From NCBI RefSeq assembly GCF_044324875.1, contig NZ_CP172185.1: a stretch of DNA of 64,000 nucleotides; one strand, written 5' to 3'. Positions 1-27,890 of the stretch are shown piece after piece. A model generated the notes under the pieces. It was not told the origin of the DNA and ran no database searches. It was given only the letters and a program-made list of their open reading frames with translations. The DNA is from Escherichia coli (GTDB taxonomy: Bacteria; Pseudomonadota; Gammaproteobacteria; Enterobacterales; Enterobacteriaceae). The translations under genes and the position numbers were made by a program. Every line of letters begins with the position of its first letter. Within the stretch, counting starts at the first letter, position 1.

Positions 1-1725
<1,725 letters not shown>

Positions 1726-1793
1726 GTCTGAATCCGGCCGACCCAAAATTTTCCCCCAAGCTTCTCCCGGTATCTTTTAAGAGTATTGATTAC

Positions 1794-3002
1794 ATGAACG
1801 ACACCGTTTTAAACGTAATCCCGGTGCCTGTACGCACTTGGGTGGCTATAGCAGCGCTCGGTATCAGTGCATTTTCGATTGTGACCAGCGAGCTTGCGCC
1901 TGTTGGCATGCTTAGTATGCTAGCAAAGGACCTGAACCAGACTGAATCGGACACGGACCTTGTCGTGACTGCATACGGCTGGGTTGGGGCTCTGGCAGCA
2001 CTTTTGTCTGGATTGATACCAGCGAGAATTTCACGTAAGTCTTTGTTAGTGACTCTTATGGTAGTGTTTGCTTTGTCTTGTGTGGCGGCGACACAGTCAT
2101 CACTCGATGACCCTATTTATGGGGGCGCGTATGACAGGCGCTTTAGCACATGGTGCTTTCTGGGCTTTGATTGGAGCAGTGGCTTCACAGCTTGTTCCGG
2201 CTGAAAAACTAGGACTGGCCACCTCAGTTATTTTTGGCGGCGTTTCGGCTGCCAGCGTTCTGGGTGTGCCACTGTCGAGTTTTATTGCGGATATGGCCGG
2301 GTGGCGGAGTGCGTTTACGGCGATTTCTCTGCTGTCACTTGCCGCCGCCTGTGCTCTATTCTGGACGCTCCCCACACTGACGGTGCCACAACCACTGAGG
2401 CTGCGTGTTTACTACGGGATATTCAAAAACCCGGTGCTCCTTTCCCTCTATGGTGCCACTGCCTGTATTATTTCGGCTCATTTTGCGGCATTCACTTACC
2501 TCCAACCACTACTGACGAAGACTCAGGAAGTACCGACGGCTTCGATTTCTGGCCTACTGCTGATGTCCGGGCTCTCCGGTCTGGCCGGAAATATCATTGC
2601 CGGAAAGCTGATCGACCGTCATATCAAAGGGCTGATTTTCGCTTCACTGCTCCTGAGCGCAGGTGCGCTCGGCATACTTGGTATGAGGAGCGCTGCACCA
2701 CTGCCTTTCTGGTTCACAGGCATACTGCTCGCAGTTTGGGGCGCGGGTATCGCCATTGTATTCGTTGGGTTGCAGACAGGTTGCTCCGTAGCGCCGGGGA
2801 TGCTGTACAACCGGCGTCAGCCATTTACGTTACAATTTTTAACGCAGCGATCGGCACCGGTGCGCTTGTGGGAGGCCAGGTATTAGCCGTAAAAGGTATT
2901 CAGGGTATGGCCTTACTTGCTGCGGGCATCATTGCATGCAGCATAGCTCTGGTCGCAATGCTGAAAAGCCCCGCGAATAAGCTCAGGCCTGAAAGGTCGT
3001 GA
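1794..3002 (+). pseudogene. MFS-type efflux transporter gene disrupted by two apparent frameshifts
   Basis: Three overlapping ORFs (1722..2204, 2068..2886, 2301..3002) in alternating frames each encode hydrophobic MFS-like segments; frame switches near 2100 and near 2815. Confidence 0.6.
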
Positions 3003-3370
3003 CGAATTCAAAAACGCATTAACCGACAGTAATTAAATGAGAGGGACGTGTCAGAAGAGGCTTCCCCTTATTTTATACGTCCAGTTCGGTAAAGAGTATT
3101 AGCCCACAGGACGAGGCTTATCCGAAACTACAACTCTGAAGGATTTAGTTAATCGCTTTAGAATTTCCAACTTCCGTTCCTCGCTCACAGCAGACCTTAA
3201 GATCTAGGAGGGAGTCCGCTCAGTGCCATGGGCGGACCTTAAGCTTCAGTAATTTGATTAGCACAATCCCTATGATAAATAGACTGGCCCCCTGAATCTC
3301 CAGACAACCAGTATCACTTAAATAAGTGATAGTCTTAATACTAGTTTTTAGACTAGTCATTGGAGAACAG

Positions 3371-3736
3371 ATGATTGATGTCTTAGGGCCGGAGAAACGC
3401 AGACGGCGTACCACACAGGAAAAGATCGCAATTGTTCAGCAGAGCTTTGAACCGGGGATGACGGTCTCCCTCGTTGCCCGGCAACATGGTGTAGCAGCCA
3501 GCCAGTTATTTCTCTGGCGTAAGCAATACCAGGAAGGAAGTCTTACTGCTGTCGCCGCCGGAGAACAGGTTGTTCCTGCCTCTGAACTTGCTGCCGCCAT
3601 GAAGCAGATTAAAGAACTCCAGCGCCTGCTCGGCAAGAAAACGATGGAAAATGAACTCCTCAAAGAAGCCGTTGAATATGGACGGGCAAAAAAGTGGATA
3701 GCGCACGCGCCCTTATTGCCCGGGGATGGGGAGTAA
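3371..3736 (+). CDS. insC: IS2 transposase OrfA (InsC)
   Basis: 121-aa product [41 protein letters not shown]... matches IS2 InsC. Confidence 0.9.
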
Positions 3737-4599
3737 GCTTAGTCAGCCGTTGTCTCCGGGTCTCACGTGCGCAACTGCATGCCATGGCCCGTCGGTCGAA
3801 GGACTGGCAGGATCGTCGGTGCAAGCGCAAGCCTGATGATACTGACGCGCTGGCCCGTATCCATACCGTTATCGGCGATCTGCCCACCTATGGTTATCGT
3901 CGGGTATGGGCACTGCTGCGCAGACAATCAGAAACTGACGACATGGCGGTGATCAATGCCAAACGCGTATACCGCATCATGCGTCAGAATGCGCTGCTGC
4001 TTGAGCGTAAACCGGAAATACCGCCATCGAAGCGGGCGCATACAGGGAAAGTGGCCGTTGGAGAAAGTAACCAGCGGTGGTGCTCTGACGGCTTCGAGTT
4101 CAGCTGTGATAACGGTGAAAAACTGCGGGTCACGTTCGCTCTGGACTGTTGCGATCGCGAGGCACTTTACTGGGCGGCCAGTAACGGTGGATATGACAGT
4201 GAAACCGTGCAGGACGTCATGCTGGGTGCCGTGGAGCGTCGTTTCGGTAACAGCCTGCCGACATCCCCAGTTGAGTGGCTGACAGACAACGGTTCAGCCT
4301 ACCGTTCTTATCAGACGCGTCAGTTCGCCAGAATGGTAGGACTGGAGCCTAAACATACGGCGGTACGTAGCCCGGAAAGCAACGGGATGGCAGAGAGCTT
4401 CGTGAAAACGATGAAGCGCGATTACATCAGCATCATGCCGAAACCCGACGGGTTAACAGCGGTAAAGAACCTTGCGGAGGCCTTCGAACATTACAACGAA
4501 TGGCATCCGCATAGTGCACTGGGGTATCGTTCGCCACGGGAATATCTGCGGCGGCGAACCAGTAATGGGTTAAGTGATAAAAAGTGTATGGAAATATAG
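3694..4599 (+). CDS. insD: IS2 transposase OrfB (InsD), DDE integrase core
   Basis: 301-aa ORF overlapping insC in a different frame (programmed frameshift arrangement); sequence matches IS2 InsD. Confidence 0.9.
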
Positions 4600-4610
4600 G
4601 GGCCAATCCA

Positions 4611-4967
4611 ATTGCACTGTTTCGAGGCTATCCGGCGACGATAAGAACTGACCAGGGGCCGGAGTTCACTTGCCGTGCACTGGATCAATGGGCCTTTGAG
4701 CATGGTGTTGAGTTGCGCTTAATCCAGCCGGGCAAGCCAACGCAGAACGGATTTATTGAGAGCTTTAACGGACGATTTCGCGATGAATGTTTGAATGAGC
4801 TCTGGTTCAGCGATATCGTTCATGCCAGGAAAATTATTAATGACTGGCGGCAGGATTATAACGAATGCCGCCCGCACTCCACGCTGAATTATCAGACACT
4901 GTCTGAATTTGCAGCGGGCTGGAGAAAGGGTCATTCTGAGAATGAAGATTCCGACGTTACTAACTGA
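4611..4967 (+). pseudogene. C-terminal remnant of an IS3-family transposase (OrfB), 5' part absent or replaced by IS2
   Basis: Frame continuing from the IS2 right end encodes ...[58 protein letters not shown]...RPHSTLNY, the conserved C-terminal part of an IS3-family DDE transposase. Confidence 0.7.
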
Positions 4968-4980
4968 GTGTTGTATCTAA

Positions 4981-5646
4981 TCGTGGGGGCAGGTCACAGC
5001 TATACGGACACGGTCAAATAGAGCACTTGCTATAACTGATCTTAAACATCCTAAATTTGATGTTAGAGTTCAGATACATAGTTCTGCCGCAAGGTATGCA
5101 GATAAGTTAGCTGCTGAAATAGTTTCAGCATATTATGATAACTCTGAGCTGGCATATGAAAGCGATTCTCCGTTTCAATTTGGTGTTATTCGAGTTCCTC
5201 GTAACGCTACTCACTTTGAGCATTCATTATATGAAAAGTACTCAGGACTTAATAAGTTCGAGGCTCCTTTTGCTGAGGCTTTAGATAGGTCTGGTTACCC
5301 TTGGCACAGAAACCTGAGCAGTGGCGGTTTTCATATCCCACTATTGACAGAGGGTGATACAAGCTCATTTTATCCAGACTTTTTAGTATGGAAGTCAGAC
5401 CTTGTCTATTGCCTTGATACCAAGGGGGGCCATCTATTGACTGCTGCCGTAGCGCGCAAGCTTTTTAATATTCATGAAGATGGTCGGAGTAAGATTCTAG
5501 TGAGATTTATCACAGAAGGAAAGCAGACAGAGCTGCGCGGCAAAGCAACAAAGGGAGGATATACTGTATGGAAAATGAAATCTGGGCATCCTACCCCAAT
5601 TTATGTGGCGGATTTAGACAAAGCTGTTAGGGAATGTCTAAAATAG
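4981..5646 (+). pseudogene. 3' fragment of a gene of unknown function with a PD-(D/E)xK-like motif; no in-frame start for its first ~120 codons
   Basis: Frame is open from the stop at 4978..4980 to 5646 but has no ATG/GTG/TTG until 5344; translation contains YPDFLVWKSDLVYCLDTKG (PD...DxK spacing typical of restriction-endonuclease-fold nucleases). Lies immediately after the IS3-family remnant. Confidence 0.4.
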
Positions 5647-5787
5647 CGAAGCCATAGCATAGAATTTTTAATGGCATTATGATCAGGACATAAAGGACTT
5701 CATGCAGGGAAAAAATATCCCAAAAGAAACTGGTCATGTCAGCACACCAAAGGATCCTCGCCGGATCCTTTGGTTTTTCTCAGCCAC

Positions 5788-5830
5788 AATCGCTTAACGT
5801 GAGTTTTCGTTCCACTGAGCGTCAGACCCC
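5788..5830. other. 43-bp segment nearly identical to the region just upstream of the ColE1/pMB1-type replication origin RNAs
   Basis: AATCGCTTAACGTGAGTTTTCGTTCCACTGAGCGTCAGACCCC differs at one position from the pBR322/pUC sequence AATCCCTTAACGTGAGTTTTCGTTCCACTGAGCGTCAGACCCC as I recall it; flanks diverge. Confidence 0.4.
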
Positions 5831-5905
5831 TATAAACACCTTAGTGAAGTCATCCTCGCAGGTAAGGCAACACATCCGTAAGGTATTTGGCCAAATCAAA
5901 TACAA

Positions 5906-6901
5906 CTAGATTGACTCGCGGGGAAGCCAGGGACTCTCAACTATCACTTTATCCCGGTGGGTGTCACCATTGATAATGTGCAGTGTACTTAAGCGCCCAA
6001 TTTCATAATGCGGTAGCTGGACCGTGGATAATGGGGGTAAAAATAAGTTTCCAATGCCTACAAGATTGTCATAGCCAAGAACGGCAATATCCTGTGGGAT
6101 TCTGATACCCTGCGTTAACAATGTTTGATACACCATAAATGCAATACGATCGTTACCACAGATGACCGAATCAAATCGCGGTTTCCCCTGTTCGATATGC
6201 GCCAGCAACATCTCCGGAATATCTCGGTAGTGCTCATCGCCGAATTGCATATAGCAGTGCTCAAGCGTATCAGGATCGATACTGGCTTCCCTGCAGGCGC
6301 GATCAAGCCCACGACGACGACGACGCGTCGCCAGATGGTTGACGGGTAAATGCAGGCATAGAGGGCGGCTGTATCCTGCTGCCAGCAGTGCCTGTACGGC
6401 CGTATACTGGCCATGTTCATCGTCAGGTATATAGCTGGCAACCGGCTCTCCCTTGTTCTCGCAGTTGGCCAGAACGCAAGGAAGCTCCAGTAACCGGGGA
6501 GGAATACTGACTTCACGCAGCCCCATGGTAGTAAAAATGATCCCCCCGGGTCGATGGGCGAGCAGCAGGTCGACAATATCGTCAGGATTATCATCGGTAA
6601 ACATATTCACCACAAAGCTGTTCCAGCCATACGCCCGCGCGGTTTCTTCAATAGACAGCGTGATTTCTACTGAAAAAGGAGTGGTGACCGTATCCAGCGC
6701 AAGCACACCAATCGTTTTGTTCCGGGTGCCAACACGACGAATCTGCTGGGCAGAAAGGTCTGGCACATAATTTAACTGCGTGATCGCCTCCTGCACCCGA
6801 GCCAGAGTCTCAGGCTTTACGCGTTTCGGGTCATTCAGCACCCGTGAAACCGTCATGAGCGATACATTGGCCAGTTTGGCCACATCCTTTAAAGACGCCA
6901 T
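5906..6901 (-). CDS. fosR: LacI/GalR-family repressor, CscR-like (FosR-like), divergent from the transporter operon
   Basis: 331 aa; N-terminal HTH MASLKDVAKLANVSLMTVSRVLN; strong similarity across its length to the E. coli sucrose repressor CscR from memory; gene symbol by recalled synteny with the fos locus. Confidence 0.75.
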   Translation of the reverse strand: MASLKDVAKLANVSLMTVSRVLNDPKRVKPETLARVQEAITQLNYVPDLSAQQIRRVGTRNKTIGVLALDTVTTPFSVEITLSIEETARAYGWNSFVVNMFTDDNPDDIVDLLLAHRPGGIIFTTMGLREVSIPPRLLELPCVLANCENKGEPVASYIPDDEHGQYTAVQALLAAGYSRPLCLHLPVNHLATRRRRRGLDRACREASIDPDTLEHCYMQFGDEHYRDIPEMLLAHIEQGKPRFDSVICGNDRIAFMVYQTLLTQGIRIPQDIAVLGYDNLVGIGNLFLPPLSTVQLPHYEIGRLSTLHIINGDTHRDKVIVESPWLPRESI

Positions 6902-7033
6902 AGTTTTCCATTATCTGAATGCATACACCCGGTAAGGTGTTGTGAGCAAATGCGAATGCCCTATTCTAGGCACGGACACCCAGGGTTATGCAGACCACTC
7001 TGATAAATTTGAGCTAGATCTCAACATTTCAAT

Positions 7034-7045
7034 GTTAACGTTAAC
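7034..7045. promoter_or_regulatory. Candidate LacI-family operator, perfect 12-bp palindrome centred on CG
   Basis: GTTAACGTTAAC is its own reverse complement; about 100 bp upstream of the transporter start, in the divergent fosR/fosT intergenic region. Confidence 0.4.
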
Positions 7046-7095
7046 TTTTGTGATTAACATCGACAAACAAATCAAAATCGAGTGTCCCCCCAAAA

Positions 7096-7109
7096 TGATA
7101 ACGTTACCA
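7096..7109. promoter_or_regulatory. Candidate LacI-family operator (TGATAACGTTACCA)
   Basis: Near-palindrome fitting the TGnAAnCGnTTnCA pattern of LacI/GalR operators; about 35 bp upstream of the transporter ATG at 7142. Confidence 0.4.
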
Positions 7110-7141
7110 TATTAGCATATCCTTCTTACGAGATTACGTAG

Positions 7142-8380
7142 ATGAAAAAACGGCCTACTCGAAGTTACATGCTGCTCAGCGCTCTGCTGTTCTTTTTCTT
7201 TGTGACCTGGTCCTCATCAAGTTCACTGCTCTCAATCTGGCTTCACCAGGAAGTGGGGCTAAAAGCATCGGAAACCGGCATTATTTTTTCAGTATTATCC
7301 GTCTCCGCGCTCTTCGCGCAGGTCTGTTATGGCTTTATTCAGGACCGACTTGGTCTGCGCAAACATTTGTTATGGTTTATCACCGCGTTGTTGATCCTCT
7401 CCGGCCCGGCTTATCTGCTTTTTAGTTATTTGCTGAGCGTTAATATTCTGCTGGGCAGCGTATTCGGGGGCTTATTTATCGGGCTGACGTTTAATGGGGG
7501 TATCGGCGTTCTGGAGTCCTATACCGAGCGCGTCGCGCGTCAAAGTACCTTTGAGTTTGGGCGGGCACGCATGTGGGGGTCTCTGGGCTGGGCAGTTGCC
7601 ACGTTTTTTGCCGGGTTACTGTTTAATATCAACCCTGACCTTAACTTCCTGGTGGCTTCATGCTCAGGGTTAATCTTCTTCTGCCTCCTGGCCCGATTAA
7701 AGGTGGCCGCGCCGGCAAGCATGGAGAAACTCGAAATTGGCGCTAAAAAAGTTTCTCTGGAAGACGCCCTGCGTCTGCTTACTCTGCCGCGCTTCTGGGC
7801 ACTGATATTCTTCGTGGTCGGAACCTGCATTTACGGCGTATACGATCAGCAATTCCCGGTCTATTTCTCATCACAGTTCCCGACATTACGCGAAGGGAAC
7901 GAGATGTTTGGCTATTTAAACTCTTTCCAGGTCTTTCTCGAGGCCGCAGGTATGTTTTGTGCGCCGTGGCTGGTTAATCGCATTGGTGCTAAAAATGGTC
8001 TGATATTCGCAGGAATGGTGATGGCGCTGCGCATGATTACTTCAGGGCTGGTGGAAGGCCCCCTGCTTATCTCCATTACCAAACTGCTTCACGCGGTCGA
8101 ACTGCCAATATTGTTAGTCGCCATATTTAAATACAACAGTCTGAATTTCGACAAACGTCTCTCCTCCACCATTTATCTGGTGGGATTTGCCTGCACCAGC
8201 TCCGTCATTGGTACCGTATTGTCCCCGCTGGCAGGCTTTAGCTATGAGAGATTTGGCTTCGCCCAATCCTATCTGATCATGGGCATCATGGTGTTCAGCA
8301 CCACGTTTATTTCCATTTTCCTTTTGCGCTCAACTAAATCCTCATCTGAGCCATCTTTTCTGCAGCAAAAAGCTGTGTAA
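7142..8380 (+). CDS. fosT: Oligosaccharide:H+ symporter, MFS (LacY/CscB-like)
   Basis: 412 aa, 12-TM hydrophobic profile, similar to CscB sucrose permease (…FQVFLEA…, …KLLHAVELP…); first gene of a tightly spaced operon. Confidence 0.8.
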   Translation: MKKRPTRSYMLLSALLFFFFVTWSSSSSLLSIWLHQEVGLKASETGIIFSVLSVSALFAQVCYGFIQDRLGLRKHLLWFITALLILSGPAYLLFSYLLSVNILLGSVFGGLFIGLTFNGGIGVLESYTERVARQSTFEFGRARMWGSLGWAVATFFAGLLFNINPDLNFLVASCSGLIFFCLLARLKVAAPASMEKLEIGAKKVSLEDALRLLTLPRFWALIFFVVGTCIYGVYDQQFPVYFSSQFPTLREGNEMFGYLNSFQVFLEAAGMFCAPWLVNRIGAKNGLIFAGMVMALRMITSGLVEGPLLISITKLLHAVELPILLVAIFKYNSLNFDKRLSSTIYLVGFACTSSVIGTVLSPLAGFSYERFGFAQSYLIMGIMVFSTTFISIFLLRSTKSSSEPSFLQQKAV

Positions 8381-8399
8381 TGTACTGAGAATAAAGACG

Positions 8400-9833
8400 A
8401 TGACATCCTTATTAGAACAGGCTGAACAGGTGCTTGAAAAAGCACAATCCGGGATTAATCCGCGCTGGTATCCGCGCTATCACCTCGCCCCTCGCGCAGG
8501 CTGGATGAATGATCCTAATGGCCTGGTATGGTTTGACGGCTGGTATCACGCCTTTTATCAACACCATCCCTACTCCCCGAAATGGGGTCCGATGCACTGG
8601 GGGCACGCCCGAAGCAAAGATCTGGTGCATTGGGAACATTTGCCCGTCGCGCTAGCGCCGGAAGGCCCGGCGGACAAAGACGGCTGTTTCTCAGGTTCCG
8701 CCGTGGTGGACGGCGATACGCTGGCGCTCATCTATACCGGACATAAATTTCACGGCCCGTCGGACACTGACGACAACCTCTACCAGGTGCAGTGTCTGGC
8801 GACCAGTCGTGACGGCATCCATTTTGAACGGCACGGCAAGGTGATTGATACACCGCCCGGACTGCATCACTTTCGCGATCCGAAGGTGTGGCGCGAAGGT
8901 GAGTTCTGGTACATGGTTGTCGGTTCCCGCGTGGAAAATACCGGTCAGGTGCGCCTGTACCGTTCCACCGATCTCCGCGAATGGCATGACGAAGGTATTT
9001 TCGCCGAGGCTGATGAAGGCAAGGGCTTTATGTGGGAATGCCCGGATTTCTTCCCCCTGGGAGAGAAGCGTGTCCTGATGTTCTCGCCGCAGGGCATGGC
9101 GGCGGAAGGGTATCACTATCGCAACCTGTTCCAGAGCGGTTATTTACTTGGGGACTGGCAGCCAGGTCAACCGTTCACCCACAGCGGACAATTTACTGAG
9201 CTGGACCACGGCCACGACTTTTATGCCCCGCAGAGTTTCCTGACCCCGGATGGCCGACGCATTGTCATCGGGTGGCTGGATATGTGGGAATCATCGATGC
9301 CCGAACAGCAGGATGGCTGGGCCGGAATGCTCTCGCTTCCTCGCGAATTAAGCCTTGTCGATGGTCGTGTGAGAATGAAACCTGCTGCCGAAGTGACCGC
9401 GCTGCGTGGCAGCTATTATCCCACGCCCGTCCGCTGTCTGAACAATCAGAACGTCCTTGTCGCGGCAAATGCCGACGCGGTCGAAGTTCAGTTGGCATGG
9501 GATTTGAGCGCATCGACGGCTGAACAGTTTGGTATCGCGTTGGGCGACGGGTTGAGAATTTACGTCGATGATCAGGCTGGGCGTCTGGTGGTGGAGCGCC
9601 GCTATCCGGAATATTCGCTGGAAGGCACTCGCAGTATTCCGCTTCCAGCAGACAGCGTTCTGTCACTGCGAATTTTTATTGACCGCTCATCGGTGGAAGT
9701 TTTTGTTAACGATGGTGACGCTTGCTTAAGCAGTCGTATTTATCCGCAGCCGGGCGAGCGTGATATTTCATTGTTTGCAAATCTGGGGAAGGCCTCATTA
9801 TACGATGCGGGATACTGGTCTTTAGATAAATAA
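8400..9833 (+). CDS. fosGH1: GH32 beta-fructofuranosidase / sucrose-6-phosphate hydrolase-like, no signal peptide (cytoplasmic)
   Basis: 477 aa with GH32 motifs WMNDPNGL, FRDPKV and WECPD; 19 bp after fosT. Confidence 0.8.
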   Translation: MTSLLEQAEQVLEKAQSGINPRWYPRYHLAPRAGWMNDPNGLVWFDGWYHAFYQHHPYSPKWGPMHWGHARSKDLVHWEHLPVALAPEGPADKDGCFSGSAVVDGDTLALIYTGHKFHGPSDTDDNLYQVQCLATSRDGIHFERHGKVIDTPPGLHHFRDPKVWREGEFWYMVVGSRVENTGQVRLYRSTDLREWHDEGIFAEADEGKGFMWECPDFFPLGEKRVLMFSPQGMAAEGYHYRNLFQSGYLLGDWQPGQPFTHSGQFTELDHGHDFYAPQSFLTPDGRRIVIGWLDMWESSMPEQQDGWAGMLSLPRELSLVDGRVRMKPAAEVTALRGSYYPTPVRCLNNQNVLVAANADAVEVQLAWDLSASTAEQFGIALGDGLRIYVDDQAGRLVVERRYPEYSLEGTRSIPLPADSVLSLRIFIDRSSVEVFVNDGDACLSSRIYPQPGERDISLFANLGKASLYDAGYWSLDK

Positions 9834-9925
9834 TTCTCCGTTCCGACCTGTTTCTTGCAGGGTGAGTTTTTATTTCTGCCAGTCTCTGGCTGGCATGTTA
9901 TTGTCTGGAATAATGAGAGAGCAAA

Positions 9926-11191
9926 ATGGATGAAAGCGTAATACCTCAAAATTGCATTACCTCGAAAGATAAAAATATATTTGTTCCAGGAAAACAGATG
10001 CTGGCATTAATGGTGACATTAGCAGCATTTCCTGCCATTGCTGAAGACGTTACAGGAAACTATCAAAGCTATTTTCAGGATGAATCAGACACCAACGGTA
10101 CGAGTGTTTCATTAGCCAATCAAGGCAATGAAAAATCATCCCTTAGCGCTTCATCTTCTCCGGTTGCTGCAGGTCAAAAACCTGAACTCACGACCTCGTC
10201 AAAGCCAGTGACGTTATCGGCACCAATGGAGAATAAGAAAACTGCAGTAGAAAAACGTCCTAAAGGGGATAACCCTAAAGATGTCAGTCTGTTGCGTTTA
10301 AGGCAGGAAGATCCGCCGGTTCACTGGAACAGTATTGGTCGTAACATGGAAGTGGGTAGCTTGCATGGGAACATTGGATCTCAGATAGAAATTGACGATG
10401 TTCGCTGGAGCAATAATAAGAAAAACAGCGGCAAGTTTAAACTCGCCACCATTCAGGCTTTTTTAAGGCACGATGAATTGCCTAACTGGTATTTCGGTTT
10501 CTGGAATGCCAGAGAAGACAGTTATAAAGGACAGTTCAGTAATCAGGACTATAAAGGCACCAATACCATCAATGAATTTTTTGTGGGCCATATTTTCGAA
10601 ACCTGGCGGGGTAATATCGGTACGGAAGTCATGGTCGGCTCCGAAACGGCAACTAAACGCTGGAAAAACCGGTTCAAAGTCTGGCAGGACCTGCGACTGT
10701 CCAACAAATGGAGCCTGGCCGGATACGCGTATGGCGAGTATCAGCCTCAGGGGAACGAACCGGGGAATGGCGATCTGGAGCAGTACATTTTCGAAATTGA
10801 GCCAGCCATTCAATACCGCGTGAATCCGGATCTCGGACTCTATTTGCGGCCCTATTATTACCATAACCGCCAGGAGCGTCAGAGCTGGGGCGACATTGTA
10901 GAAGAAGAATGGAAAGTCACGGCCGGGCTCTGGCGAAACTGGTATCCATTATTAACCTCCCTGTATGTTGGATTTGGCCAGGACAAAATAGATAACGCCA
11001 GCAATGCCAGCGAAGTTTTCTATGACGGCCGTTATAAGTTTATCGGTGGAACGCTGAGTTATCCGGTATTTGGTGAGGTGCGATTATATGGTGAATTCAA
11101 GGCACAATTTACGAAAGAAACCGGACTTTGGACATCAACCGGTCACTCATGGAATCCGTTTACCGTGGTTGGCGTGAATTATAACTTCTGA
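9926..11191 (+). CDS. fosX: Predicted outer-membrane beta-barrel protein (putative oligosaccharide channel); start probably internal near 9995
   Basis: Signal-peptide-like MLALMVTLAAFPAIA, Ser/Thr-rich linker, alternating-hydrophobic beta-strand pattern, C-terminal ...VGVNYNF with terminal Phe; paralogous to the ORF at 12712..13725. Confidence 0.6.
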   Translation: MDESVIPQNCITSKDKNIFVPGKQMLALMVTLAAFPAIAEDVTGNYQSYFQDESDTNGTSVSLANQGNEKSSLSASSSPVAAGQKPELTTSSKPVTLSAPMENKKTAVEKRPKGDNPKDVSLLRLRQEDPPVHWNSIGRNMEVGSLHGNIGSQIEIDDVRWSNNKKNSGKFKLATIQAFLRHDELPNWYFGFWNAREDSYKGQFSNQDYKGTNTINEFFVGHIFETWRGNIGTEVMVGSETATKRWKNRFKVWQDLRLSNKWSLAGYAYGEYQPQGNEPGNGDLEQYIFEIEPAIQYRVNPDLGLYLRPYYYHNRQERQSWGDIVEEEWKVTAGLWRNWYPLLTSLYVGFGQDKIDNASNASEVFYDGRYKFIGGTLSYPVFGEVRLYGEFKAQFTKETGLWTSTGHSWNPFTVVGVNYNF

Positions 11192-11205
11192 TATTCAGGT
11201 GTAGC

Positions 11206-12699
11206 ATGAAAAAATTAATAGTTGCGGCATCTTTCGCTCTGCTTGCGCTTTCGCTCGGCAATAACCCTGCCTGGTCACAGCCTTCGAAAGAGACATTACA
11301 GAATAAAAGCATCACCCATATTAATGGCTTTTTTCCGAGGGTTGAAGGTTCATTCGTGGGCGACCCTATGCCCGTTTTTAACGATGGCAAATTTGATATT
11401 TATTATCTTAATGATGTCCGAGGCGGCAGCGATCTGGGGGTACATGCTTTTCATCTCTTGTCGAGTGCCAACTTGTATGATTATCAGAACCATTCGGAAG
11501 TGATCCCCTACGTTAACGACGTTGACGATCCTGAACTGTTATTGGGAACCGGTTCGATTATTAAAGTCGGCGATACCTGGCATGCCTGGTACACCGCACA
11601 CAATGAAAATGTGTTCCCGGTTGAGTCTGTTATGCACGCGACCAGTAAGGACCGCCTTCACTGGGTGAAACACCCGCAGGACACCCTGTTACCCGGCGGT
11701 AACTATCGGGGTAATGATTTCAGGGACCCTCACGTCGTTTGGGTTGAGGAAAAGAAAGAATACTGGATGTTAATTACTACGCGCAGTAATGGTCGTGGGG
11801 TTATTGCCCGATACAGTTCAACGGATTTAAAGCACTGGGAAGATCGCGGCGTATTTTTTGATAACGACACCATCACCAGCAATGCCAACCTCGAATGCCC
11901 GACACTGGTTTACTTCAACGGACGCTGGTATCTCAGCTTTAGCGACCAATGGCCGTTACGCCTGACACAATACCGGGTTGCGGACAATCCGGAGGGGCCG
12001 TGGCGGAAACTGGACAATTATGTGGTCGACGGCTCAGGTTTTTACGCGGGTAAACTGGTTCTCAAAAACGATCGGCTGTTTGTTTTCGGCTGGATCCCGA
12101 CGAAAGCCGGTAACCGTGACAGCGGCAACATTGATTGGGCAGGGAATCTGGTTGCTCATGAGCTCACCGCAGATGCCCAGGGCCAGCTCAACAGCATCCT
12201 CCCCCAGGAGCTTCAGAAGGTCATCAGTGAGAATCCTGGCCCGGAAACCACCTTGACGAGCACTAAGACACTCAAAACGGACACGTCGTTCGGCCCCTTA
12301 CAGTCGGCGCTGTACCCGGCCTTGCCTGAGCGCGGTGAGTTGAGTGCAACCATCGATGTTCCTTCTGCCGGAATGGTGATGAGCTTTGGTCTGACCGACG
12401 ACAGAGTCAGTGATGCGATGCTGAACGTTGTGTTCAATAAGAGCAAAGGAAAAGTCTATTTTTTCAACGCGCCGCTAGCGTCGATTCATCAGGCTAACGC
12501 GGAATCCTGGGTGGACATTCCGATCGGGGAAAAAATTGAGTTACGCGTTCTCATACAAAACTCAATTGCTGTCTTTTATATAAACAACAAAGTGGCATTC
12601 AGTACCCGGATGTATTCCATGCAGGAGAAACCGTGGAGTATTAGCCTGCCTCAAAACGACCATTTTCACGCGACGTTGAAAATAAAAGAAATGATTTAA
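11206..12699 (+). CDS. fosGH2: GH32 beta-fructofuranosidase (levanase/inulinase-like) with N-terminal signal peptide (exported)
   Basis: 497 aa; signal peptide MKKLIVAASFALLALSLGNNPAWSQP; GH32 catalytic motifs (FRDPHV, ECP); 14 bp after the preceding gene. Confidence 0.8.
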   Translation: MKKLIVAASFALLALSLGNNPAWSQPSKETLQNKSITHINGFFPRVEGSFVGDPMPVFNDGKFDIYYLNDVRGGSDLGVHAFHLLSSANLYDYQNHSEVIPYVNDVDDPELLLGTGSIIKVGDTWHAWYTAHNENVFPVESVMHATSKDRLHWVKHPQDTLLPGGNYRGNDFRDPHVVWVEEKKEYWMLITTRSNGRGVIARYSSTDLKHWEDRGVFFDNDTITSNANLECPTLVYFNGRWYLSFSDQWPLRLTQYRVADNPEGPWRKLDNYVVDGSGFYAGKLVLKNDRLFVFGWIPTKAGNRDSGNIDWAGNLVAHELTADAQGQLNSILPQELQKVISENPGPETTLTSTKTLKTDTSFGPLQSALYPALPERGELSATIDVPSAGMVMSFGLTDDRVSDAMLNVVFNKSKGKVYFFNAPLASIHQANAESWVDIPIGEKIELRVLIQNSIAVFYINNKVAFSTRMYSMQEKPWSISLPQNDHFHATLKIKEMI

Positions 12700-27795: not shown

Positions 27796-27890
27796 TGGCG
27801 GAAGATCACAGGAGTCGAACCTGCCCGGGACCGCTGGCGGCCCCAACTGGATTTGAAGTCCAGCCGCCTCACCGGAGACGACGATCTTCC
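27796..27890 (-). tRNA. selC: tRNA-Sec (selenocysteine), anticodon UCA
   Basis: Minus-strand sequence GGAAGATCGTCGTCTCCGGTGAGGCGGCTGGACTTCAAATCCAGTTGGGGCCGCCAGCGGTCCCGGGCAGGTTCGACTCCTGTGATCTTCCGCCA matches E. coli selC; long variable arm. Confidence 0.95.

What the first reader, a model, noticed from the sequence alone, without database searches (positions are those of the whole stretch)
4981..5646. Orphan 3' gene fragment encoding a PD-(D/E)xK-like nuclease motif
A 221-codon open frame has no start codon for its first ~120 codons, so the gene's 5' part is missing. The product contains YPDFLVWKSDLVYCLDTKG, with PD ... D-x-K spacing characteristic of restriction-endonuclease-fold nucleases. 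It sits directly after IS remnants, so it may be what is left of a restriction-modification or other defence gene disrupted by IS activity. I do not recognise the family.
Basis: inference. Interest (0 to 1): 0.5.

Follow-up and report, generated by a model that had tools for sequence, protein, structure and literature searches.

The report
Dead tail of a transposon-borne restriction gene
This is the leftover last quarter (the nuclease domain) of a Type III restriction-enzyme gene that arrived on a Tn3-family transposon and was then cut off by an insertion sequence; it is an ordinary, non-functional relic.

Summary
Window 4981-5646 is a stop-free frame of 221 codons. Its first in-frame start is TTG at codon 122.

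Window 4996-5830 is 99.6-99.8% identical to the 3' end of a two-gene module on Enterobacterales plasmids. That module is a 647-aa Type III-class methyltransferase (mod) overlapping a 791-aa helicase-nuclease (res).

The window keeps only Res residues 576-791 (215/216 identical). It also keeps the 184 bp downstream, which end in an exact 38-bp Tn3-type terminal inverted repeat at 5793-5830.

- **Left edge:** the right end of an ISSen4 remnant (4611-4996).
- **Right edge:** a true transposon end. Three other fos-locus records carry the uninterrupted target site, and their homology to the window begins exactly at 5831 (TATAA).

The retained domain has the conserved E...PD...DxK signature. Its predicted fold matches PD-(D/E)xK nucleases.

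The window has no mod, no helicase part, no plausible start and no PGAP annotation here. I therefore read it as a pseudogene relic, fixed in the selC/fos island of about 29 E. coli genomes.

It is low interest in itself. The intact transposon-borne parent system, which I found unnamed and undescribed in the library searched, is mildly interesting.

The parts
3280..4615 (+). ISEc27-like IS3-family element (context). It abuts and truncates the ISSen4 copy on its left side.
   Evidence: ORFs at 3326-3736 and 3694-4599. PGAP name in BEN2908. Extent taken from plasmid matches.
4611..4996 (+). The last 387 bp of ISSen4 (IS3 family). It holds the C-terminal part of the transposase and the right terminal repeat ...GGGGGCAGGTCA. 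This forms the left break of the res fragment.
   Evidence: 99.5% identical to bases 836-1222 of a complete ISSen4 in L006. Annotated as ISSen4 or integrase core domain in E. coli genomes.
4996..5646 (+). 3' remnant of a Type III restriction enzyme res gene: codons 576-791 plus the TAG stop. It encodes only the C-terminal PD-(D/E)xK nuclease domain and is a pseudogene.
   Evidence: 99.6-99.8% DNA identity to plasmid res genes. 215/216 aa identical to residues 576-791 of the 791-aa product. Nuclease fold.
5260..5460 (+). Catalytic-motif region of the nuclease domain: E664 (5260-5262), P702-D703-F704 (5374-5382), D716-T717-K718 (5416-5424), K730 (5458-5460). It includes the copy's only private substitution, Asp725 to Ala (A to C at 5444).
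   Evidence: Column conservation in A1 and A2. Nucleotide differences from three plasmid copies.
5746..5782 (+). Terminator-like hairpin (12-bp stem, 5-nt loop) followed by a T-run, downstream of res and inside the transposon end.
   Evidence: Terminator scan. Part of the segment conserved with the plasmid copies.
5793..5830 (-). 38-bp Tn3-type terminal inverted repeat (GGGGTCTGACGCTCAGTGGAACGAAAACTCACGTTAAG), the right end of the transposon that carried mod-res.
   Evidence: Exact match, single copy in the window, 0 expected by chance. Same repeat at the same place in L001, L002 and L006. Homology to all plasmid copies stops at this repeat: 5830 for L002, and 2-3 chance bases beyond it for L001 and L006.
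5831..5835 (.). TATAA, the target pentanucleotide at which the transposon inserted, 75 bp beyond the 3' end of the fos regulator gene. The second copy expected at the lost left end is gone.
   Evidence: Uninterrupted site ...CAACAGTGATCGT|TATAAACACC... in L007, L008 and L009, whose homology with the window starts exactly at 5831. The left flank is absent from the window.

Best explanation

Shown:
- The transposon inserted at a TATAA 75 bp downstream of the fos regulator gene in the selC-associated island.
- An ISSen4 end now abuts res codon 576.
- Everything to the left is absent from the window: the 5' three quarters of res, mod, tnpR, tnpA, the left repeat and the original left flank. The ISSen4 copy is itself cut by an ISEc27-like element.

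Inferred:
- ISSen4 inserted into res, and IS-mediated deletion then removed the left part.
- In the intact protein, the N-terminal SF2 ATPase couples ATP hydrolysis to DNA communication after Mod recognises its site. The C-terminal PD-(D/E)xK domain, which is the part retained here, cuts unmethylated DNA, as in EcoP15I-type enzymes.
- The remnant is inert as a gene. It has no start codon for 121 codons, no ribosome-binding site before the first TTG, no ATPase part and no Mod partner.
For: - **DNA identity and breakpoints:**
- **Parent gene order on plasmids:** tnpA(-), tnpR, mod (647 aa), res (791 aa, 8-nt overlap with mod), terminal repeat.
- **Mod:** matches Type III methyltransferase profiles at E = 1e-76. 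It has DPPY before FxGxG, read directly.
- **Res N-terminus:** matches Pfam ResIII at 1.4e-6. It has invariant GKT, DExH, T205 within a nearly invariant S203-A204 (SAT) and QxxGRxxRQ.
- **Family size and shape:** 237 clusters; full-length members are 753-815 aa with the match always at the C-terminus.
- **Transposon end:** exact 38-bp Tn3 repeat. Empty target sites in L007-L009. 5-bp duplications flank related copies: CATTT in L001 and ATCAA in L006. The resolvase of the plasmid copies matches Tn3 and gamma-delta resolvases at E = 1e-91.
- **No other piece of the element in the window:**
- **No E. coli chromosome holds the 5' part:** 0 of 5426 genomes.
- **PGAP annotates nothing at the fragment:**
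Against: - The Type III assignment of the parent is by architecture and profiles, not by close similarity to a characterised enzyme. PADLOC REase_III profiles match only about 90 residues of the helicase core (E = 1e-8).
- There is no sequence match to any solved structure beyond XPB-like helicase motifs.
- EcoP15I is not among the top 50 Foldseek PDB matches of the full-length model.
- The order of the IS events is inferred. No intermediate with ISSen4 at this exact position was found; in L006 ISSen4 sits at a different place in res.
- Absence of expression is inferred, not measured.
Confidence: 0.93

Rival explanations
1. The frame encodes a small stand-alone nuclease of about 100-220 aa that is translated from an internal or unusual start. 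It would be a live gene rather than a fragment.
For: The frame is still fully open, with only one amino-acid change from the plasmid gene. Many database homologues are listed at 150-375 aa. A TTG at codon 122 gives a 100-aa ORF.
Against: DNA identity with the plasmid genes continues upstream into one 791-aa ORF and stops exactly at an IS end. The two short homologues that were examined in context are split calls next to mod and ResIII pieces, and the rest sit mostly on very short contigs. All long representatives are 753-815 aa. The TTG product would lack invariant E664 and the first helix of the fold. No Shine-Dalgarno-like sequence precedes it. PGAP calls nothing here. The near-identity fits recent acquisition rather than selection.
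Confidence: 0.02
2. The parent gene is not a Type III Res but the nuclease-helicase of another defence system, for example a Type I-like or Type ISP-like enzyme or an uncharacterised methyltransferase-linked system. The fragment would then be a relic of something other than classical Type III R-M.
For: There is only weak similarity to curated Type III Res profiles. NCBIfam has no hit. RefSeq names it only 'DEAD/DEAH box helicase family protein'. Full-length fold matches are generic SF2 helicases and include Type I HsdR. The protein is about 790 aa, shorter than EcoP15I-type Res as I recall it (about 970 aa).
Against: The partner is a strong Type III Mod match, with 10 of the 25 best PADLOC hits (including the 9 best) being MTase_III at up to 1e-76. 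It is a two-gene operon with translationally overlapping mod then res. The domain order is ATPase then nuclease, as in Type III; Type I HsdR has the nuclease first (established knowledge). Pfam ResIII matches. JGI and UniProt annotators name relatives Type III restriction enzyme. No specificity subunit or extra genes lie inside the transposon.
Confidence: 0.05
3. The stump has been kept because it does something in cis. The single Tn3 terminal repeat could give the island target immunity against Tn3-type transposons. The hairpin terminator at 5746-5782 could shield the convergent fos regulator from transcription coming out of the upstream IS elements.
For: The repeat is intact and exact. The hairpin is a strong terminator-like site. 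The stump is 100% conserved in 27 listed chromosomes. Single-end immunity is established knowledge for Tn3, and I did not test it here.
Against: The conservation is equally explained by recent common descent of the island, since flanking DNA is also about 100% identical. fos loci without the stump exist on plasmids and in strain S43. This reading is compatible with the coding part being dead.
Confidence: 0.1

Closest known systems
Type III restriction-modification systems (EcoP15I, EcoP1I; Mod + Res)
   Same: In the intact plasmid parent, a Type III-class beta-type methyltransferase gene is followed by an overlapping res gene. Res has an N-terminal SF2 ATPase (GKT, DExH, SAT, QxxGRxxR) and a C-terminal PD-(D/E)xK endonuclease domain. 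The window keeps that endonuclease domain.
   Different: Res is about 790 aa and is only marginally similar in sequence to curated Type III Res profiles. The C-terminal domain has no hit in the Pfam-A copy used here, NCBIfam or PADLOC. The Lys of D-x-K is Thr in 3 of 19 family members, while a Lys 12 residues later is invariant. In the window the system is reduced to a 216-codon stump with no Mod and no ATPase.
Tn3 / Tn1000 (gamma-delta) subgroup of the Tn3 transposon family
   Same: Exact 38-bp Tn3 terminal repeat. Divergent tnpA and tnpR, with a resolvase that matches Tn3 and gamma-delta resolvases at E = 1e-91. Cargo lies between tnpR and the right repeat, where Tn3 carries bla. 5-bp target duplications and an AT-rich target (TATAA).
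   Different: The cargo is a restriction-modification system rather than a beta-lactamase. Plasmid copies mix a gamma-delta-type left repeat with the Tn3-type right repeat, or nest the Tn3-type repeat inside gamma-delta-type ends. I found no element name for it in the annotations or papers searched. The window keeps only the right 835 bp.
IS-truncated gene relics in E. coli genomic islands
   Same: The break is precisely at an IS terminal repeat, IS elements are nested, and adjacent DNA has been lost.
   Different: Nothing unusual. The only notable point is that both edges can be reconstructed to the base, thanks to intact copies and empty sites elsewhere.

Membership tests
Type III R-M system (parent gene pair on plasmids) | Mod subunit: a beta-class DNA methyltransferase of the Type III Mod kind | tested here: met
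   PADLOC MTase_III at E = 1.1e-76, plus eleven further MTase_III profiles among the 25 shown. DPPY lies N-terminal to FxGxG in the translation. Pfam N6_N4_Mtase hits relatives.
Type III R-M system (parent gene pair on plasmids) | res gene directly downstream of mod in one operon | tested here: met
   mod at 5340-7283 and res at 7276-9651 in L001 and L002, an 8-nt overlap. The same pairing occurs in an unrelated metagenome contig.
Type III R-M system (parent gene pair on plasmids) | Res has an N-terminal SF2 helicase-like ATPase followed by a C-terminal PD-(D/E)xK endonuclease | tested here: met
   Pfam ResIII at residues 10-207, E = 1.4e-6. Invariant motifs I, II and VI, with motif III invariant at T205 and nearly invariant at S203-A204. 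C-terminal nuclease fold and motif.
Type III R-M system (parent gene pair on plasmids) | Recognisable similarity of Res to characterised Type III Res enzymes (EcoP15I and EcoP1I class) | tested here: inconclusive
   PADLOC REase_III matches only residues 387-475 at E = 9.8e-9. There is no PDB sequence hit. EcoP15I is not in the top 50 Foldseek PDB matches. Distant Foldseek matches to the 'Type III restriction enzyme C-terminal endonuclease domain' reach E of about 1e-4.
Type III R-M system (parent gene pair on plasmids) | ATP-dependent cleavage near one of two inversely oriented asymmetric sites; hemimethylation by Mod | not testable with these tools
   This needs biochemistry or methylome data.
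Type III R-M system (as present in the window) | A complete mod and res present | tested here: not met
   Only res codons 576-791 are present. No other part of the element is in the 64-kb window, and none is in any E. coli chromosome of the collection.
PD-(D/E)xK nuclease superfamily | Conserved acidic and lysine catalytic signature (E ... PD ... (D/E)xK) | tested here: met
   E664, D703 and K730 are invariant. D716 is D in 18/19 and E in 1. K718 is K in 16/19. All are intact in the window copy.
PD-(D/E)xK nuclease superfamily | Restriction-endonuclease-like alpha/beta core fold | tested here: met
Tn3-family transposon | About 38-bp terminal inverted repeat starting GGGG | tested here: met
   Exact Tn3 repeat at 5793-5830. 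It marks the end of homology in four independent contexts. Only one end survives in the window.
Tn3-family transposon | 5-bp target-site duplication | tested here: inconclusive
   In the window only the right copy (TATAA) can exist. Empty sites show TATAA once. Related copies have CATTT (L001) and ATCAA (L006) duplications.
Tn3-family transposon | DDE transposase TnpA plus serine resolvase TnpR and a res site | tested here: met
   Met in the plasmid copies: a 1002-aa Tn3 family transposase and a resolvase matching Tn3 resolvase at E = 2e-91. Both are absent from the window.

The most novel reading that the evidence does not exclude
The intact parent may be an undescribed mobile defence module. 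It is a compact (about 790-aa Res) and poorly profiled subfamily of Type III restriction enzymes. It occupies the cargo slot that bla occupies in Tn3, in a Tn3/gamma-delta-type transposon that hops between Enterobacterales plasmids. One form is a tnpA-deleted 5.7-kb derivative that is still flanked by a target duplication. The nuclease site may also be a variant, in which a Lys on the following helix (K730, invariant) can stand in for the classical D-x-K lysine, which is Thr in 3 of 19 members. The window's stump would then be the chromosomal footprint of this element.
Probability: 0.3. Interest if true: 0.35.

Novelty: new member of a known kind. Interest (0 to 1): 0.2.

Why it matters
For the window itself it matters little. 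It corrects an unannotated stretch to 'res pseudogene plus Tn3-family right end'. It also dates a small piece of the history of the selC/fos island found in avian and other extraintestinal E. coli: transposon insertion at TATAA, an ISSen4 hit, then deletion.

More broadly, it points to a restriction-modification system carried as cargo of a Tn3-type transposon on plasmids of Citrobacter, Klebsiella, Serratia, Enterobacter and E. coli. Such cargo could influence plasmid traffic among clinical Enterobacterales. The Res family is missed by NCBIfam and barely touched by PADLOC, so defence-system surveys may under-count it.

Tried and rejected
- **Family searches on the fragment alone:** Pfam-A, NCBIfam and PADLOC all gave nothing.
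- **PF27151:** some homologues carry a precomputed PF27151 hit. The Pfam copy available here does not contain it, and P0017 also gave no hit. I could not name that domain.
- **Sequence searches of solved structures:** the full-length Res gave only weak XPB/Rad25 helicase-motif matches. The C-terminal profile gave only chance hits to SMC1A and IceA2.
- **Full-length fold search against PDB:** generic SF2 helicases only, with no specific link to EcoP15I.
- **Short homologues as evidence for a stand-alone gene:** rejected after looking at their contigs. They are broken mod-res pairs.
- **An ISSen4 intermediate:** the one plasmid with ISSen4 inside res has it near codon 76, not codon 576. It is an independent hit.
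- **The lost left flank and other transposon parts in the window:** absent.
- **Literature:** four full-text searches for a Tn3-family element with Type III R-M cargo, and a look at the BEN2908 genome paper, found no description.

Full report
**1. The observation**

The frame opens after TAA at 4978-4980 and ends with TAG at 5644-5646. The first in-frame start codon is TTG at codon 122 (5344), and the first ATG is codon 199. A 221-codon open frame at this composition has a chance probability of about 5e-7. The stretch is AT-rich, with GC 0.416 against 0.497 for the whole window.

**2. What the DNA is**

Megablast against complete E. coli genomes found 27 listed chromosomes identical over 4960-5720. 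It also found a few plasmids where the match starts at 4996 and lies inside a gene annotated 'DEAD/DEAH box helicase family protein'.

Two such plasmids, L001 and L002, share this gene order:
- a Tn3-family transposase on the minus strand, truncated in L001 and frameshifted in L002;
- a 182-aa recombinase;
- a 647-aa site-specific DNA methyltransferase;
- a 791-aa helicase-family protein, overlapping the methyltransferase gene by 8 nt.

Direct blastn shows window 4996-5830 is 99.6% identical to L001 and L002, and 99.8% to L006. This covers the last 651 nt of that gene plus the 184 nt that follow. At protein level the fragment equals residues 576-791, with 215/216 identical.

**3. The right edge is a transposon end**

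The last 38 bp of the shared segment (5793-5830, minus strand) are exactly GGGGTCTGACGCTCAGTGGAACGAAAACTCACGTTAAG. I recalled this as the Tn3 terminal repeat. It occurs once in the window, against 0 expected. It sits at the same place in L001, L002 and L006. Beyond it the four contexts are unrelated.

Three records carry the fos locus without this segment: chromosome S43 and two plasmids (L007-L009). They match the window from exactly 5831 onward. They also share one left flank...CAACAGTGATCGT|TATAAACACC.... This is the empty target site. The transposon therefore inserted at TATAA, 75 bp beyond the 3' end of the LacI-family fos regulator (5906-6901, minus strand). The original left flank is nowhere in the window.

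Related copies show the 5-bp duplications expected of the Tn3 family:
- CATTT flanks a 5.7-kb element bounded by two Tn3-type repeats in L001.
- ATCAA flanks a larger element with gamma-delta-type repeats in L006, in which the Tn3-type repeat is internal.

The resolvase of the plasmid copies matches Tn3 and gamma-delta resolvases at E = 1e-91 and 5e-89.

**4. The left edge is an IS end**

Window 4611-4997 matches the last 387 bp of a complete ISSen4 at 99.5%. That element's right terminal repeat ends ...GGGGGCAGGTCA at 4996, and res sequence resumes at 4996/4997, which is codon 576.

The ISSen4 copy lacks its first 835 bp and abuts an ISEc27-like element at about 3280-4615. No other piece of the transposon is in the window. 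No E. coli chromosome in the collection contains mod or the 5' part of res; only 4 plasmids do.

I infer an ISSen4 insertion into res followed by IS-mediated deletion. The order of steps is not shown. A plasmid with ISSen4 in res has it at a different position, near codon 76, so it is an independent hit.

**5. What the parent gene is**

The upstream methyltransferase matches PADLOC Type III methyltransferase profiles at up to E = 1.1e-76. Its DPPY motif comes before FxGxG, which is the arrangement of Type III Mod subunits (established knowledge).

The 791-aa protein has these features:
- Pfam ResIII at its N-terminus, E = 1.4e-6.
- A weak PADLOC REase_III match over the motif V-VI region.
- Invariant GKT, DExH and QxxGRxxRQ motifs across 19 full-length relatives, with T205 invariant inside a nearly invariant SAT motif.

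An exhaustive search with the fragment found 237 clusters at 50% identity. Every long member is 753-815 aa, and the match is always at the extreme C-terminus. The two shorter hits I checked in context are split gene calls in which mod and a ResIII piece lie just upstream.

The gene order (mod then res) and the domain order (ATPase then nuclease) fit Type III. Closer kinship with EcoP15I-type Res could not be shown:
- NCBIfam gave no hit.
- PDB sequence searches gave no relevant hit.
- The full-length model (pLDDT 85.2) retrieves generic SF2 helicases, plus Type I HsdR at ranks 20 and below.

**6. The retained domain**

Conservation in the family:

| Residue | Conservation in 19 full-length members |
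|---|---|
| E664 | invariant |
| D703 | invariant |
| F704 | invariant |
| K730 | invariant |
| D716 | D in 18, E in 1 |
| K718 | K in 16, T in 3 |

All are intact in the window copy. Its one private change against three plasmid copies is A to C at 5444. This turns Asp725 into Ala, at a position that is Asp or Glu in 24 of the 25 close relatives aligned with it.

**7. Function now**

The window has no mod, no ATPase part, no start codon for 121 codons and no Shine-Dalgarno-like sequence before the TTG. PGAP annotates nothing there in BEN2908. I conclude that it is a pseudogene relic.

Its near-identity to the plasmid genes, and the 100% identity among the listed chromosomes, fit recent acquisition and shared descent of the island. 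In the collection, 38 E. coli genomes carry the fos regulator. Of these, 29 match a query spanning the junction between the transposon end and the fos flank over at least 80% of its length.

The island is the selC-associated one. tRNA-SeC lies at 27796-27890, and the same arrangement is in strain BEN2908, whose fos locus has been described within a pathogenicity island (PMC3325963, abstract).

The surviving terminal repeat and the hairpin terminator at 5746-5782 could in principle act in cis. That is speculation.

**8. Novelty**

The stump is ordinary. The parent, a Type III-type R-M pair carried in the cargo slot of a Tn3/gamma-delta-type transposon, is on about 20 plasmids of Citrobacter, Klebsiella, Serratia, Enterobacter, Raoultella and E. 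coli. I found no name or description for it in the literature searches. That library is incomplete, and REBASE and TnCentral could not be consulted.

Noticed in passing
L001 4135-9835; L002 1483-9835; L006 1145-11078: The plasmid copies of the parent transposon have mixed ends. L001 is a 5.7-kb derivative with Tn3-type repeats at both ends, most of tnpA deleted and a CATTT duplication. L002 pairs a gamma-delta-type left repeat (8 mismatches to Tn3) with the Tn3-type right repeat and has no matching duplication. L006 has gamma-delta-type repeats at both ends with an ATCAA duplication, and the Tn3-type repeat lies 357 bp inside. This suggests recombination or nesting between Tn3-type and gamma-delta-type elements.
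   Followed up: partly
window 5416-5460 (Res residues 716-730); alignment A2: In the Res family the lysine of the D-x-K motif is Thr in 3 of 19 full-length members. A lysine 12 residues later (K730, on the following helix) is invariant. This may be a variant arrangement of the PD-(D/E)xK active site.
   Followed up: partly
window 5444: This is the only substitution private to the chromosomal stump, compared with three plasmid copies. It changes Asp725 to Ala at a position that is Asp or Glu in 24 of 25 close relatives.
   Followed up: yes
window 3109-3116 versus L003 7467-10158: Strain BEN2908 carries an extra IS66-family element, annotated as frameshifted, inserted here. The two window-to-BEN2908 alignments overlap by 8 bases (3109-3116), which is consistent with a target duplication. 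The window lacks this element, so it comes from a sister strain and not from BEN2908 itself.
   Followed up: partly
window 157-3002: Upstream of the IS cluster lie more decayed genes: an IS100/IS21-family istA (157-1179, minus strand), the 3' fragment of an aldo/keto reductase gene (1336-1725) and an MFS transporter gene split over two frames (1722-3002). BEN2908 annotates these as frameshifted or partial.
   Followed up: no
window 5906-12699 and beyond; tRNA-SeC at 27796-27890 (minus strand): Immediately right of the stump is the fructooligosaccharide (fos) locus: LacI-family regulator, MFS transporter, two GH32 hydrolases and OmpG-type porins. It lies in a selC-associated island. The same locus also occurs on several E. 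coli plasmids, and at 95.6% identity in strain S43, in both cases without the transposon stump.
   Followed up: partly
L004 3828-8128; L005 3430-7774: In two metagenome contigs from the same ENA accession series, the homologous mod-res pair is broken into two to five consecutive ORFs. This is either assembly indel noise or independent decay. It explains why the 90%-cluster search returned only short proteins.
   Followed up: partly
window 5746-5830: The hairpin, T-run and terminal repeat downstream of res resemble the segment that follows bla in Tn3. I recall that segment from cloning-vector sequences and did not test it here. If correct, the R-M genes occupy exactly the cargo slot that bla has in Tn3.
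   Followed up: no
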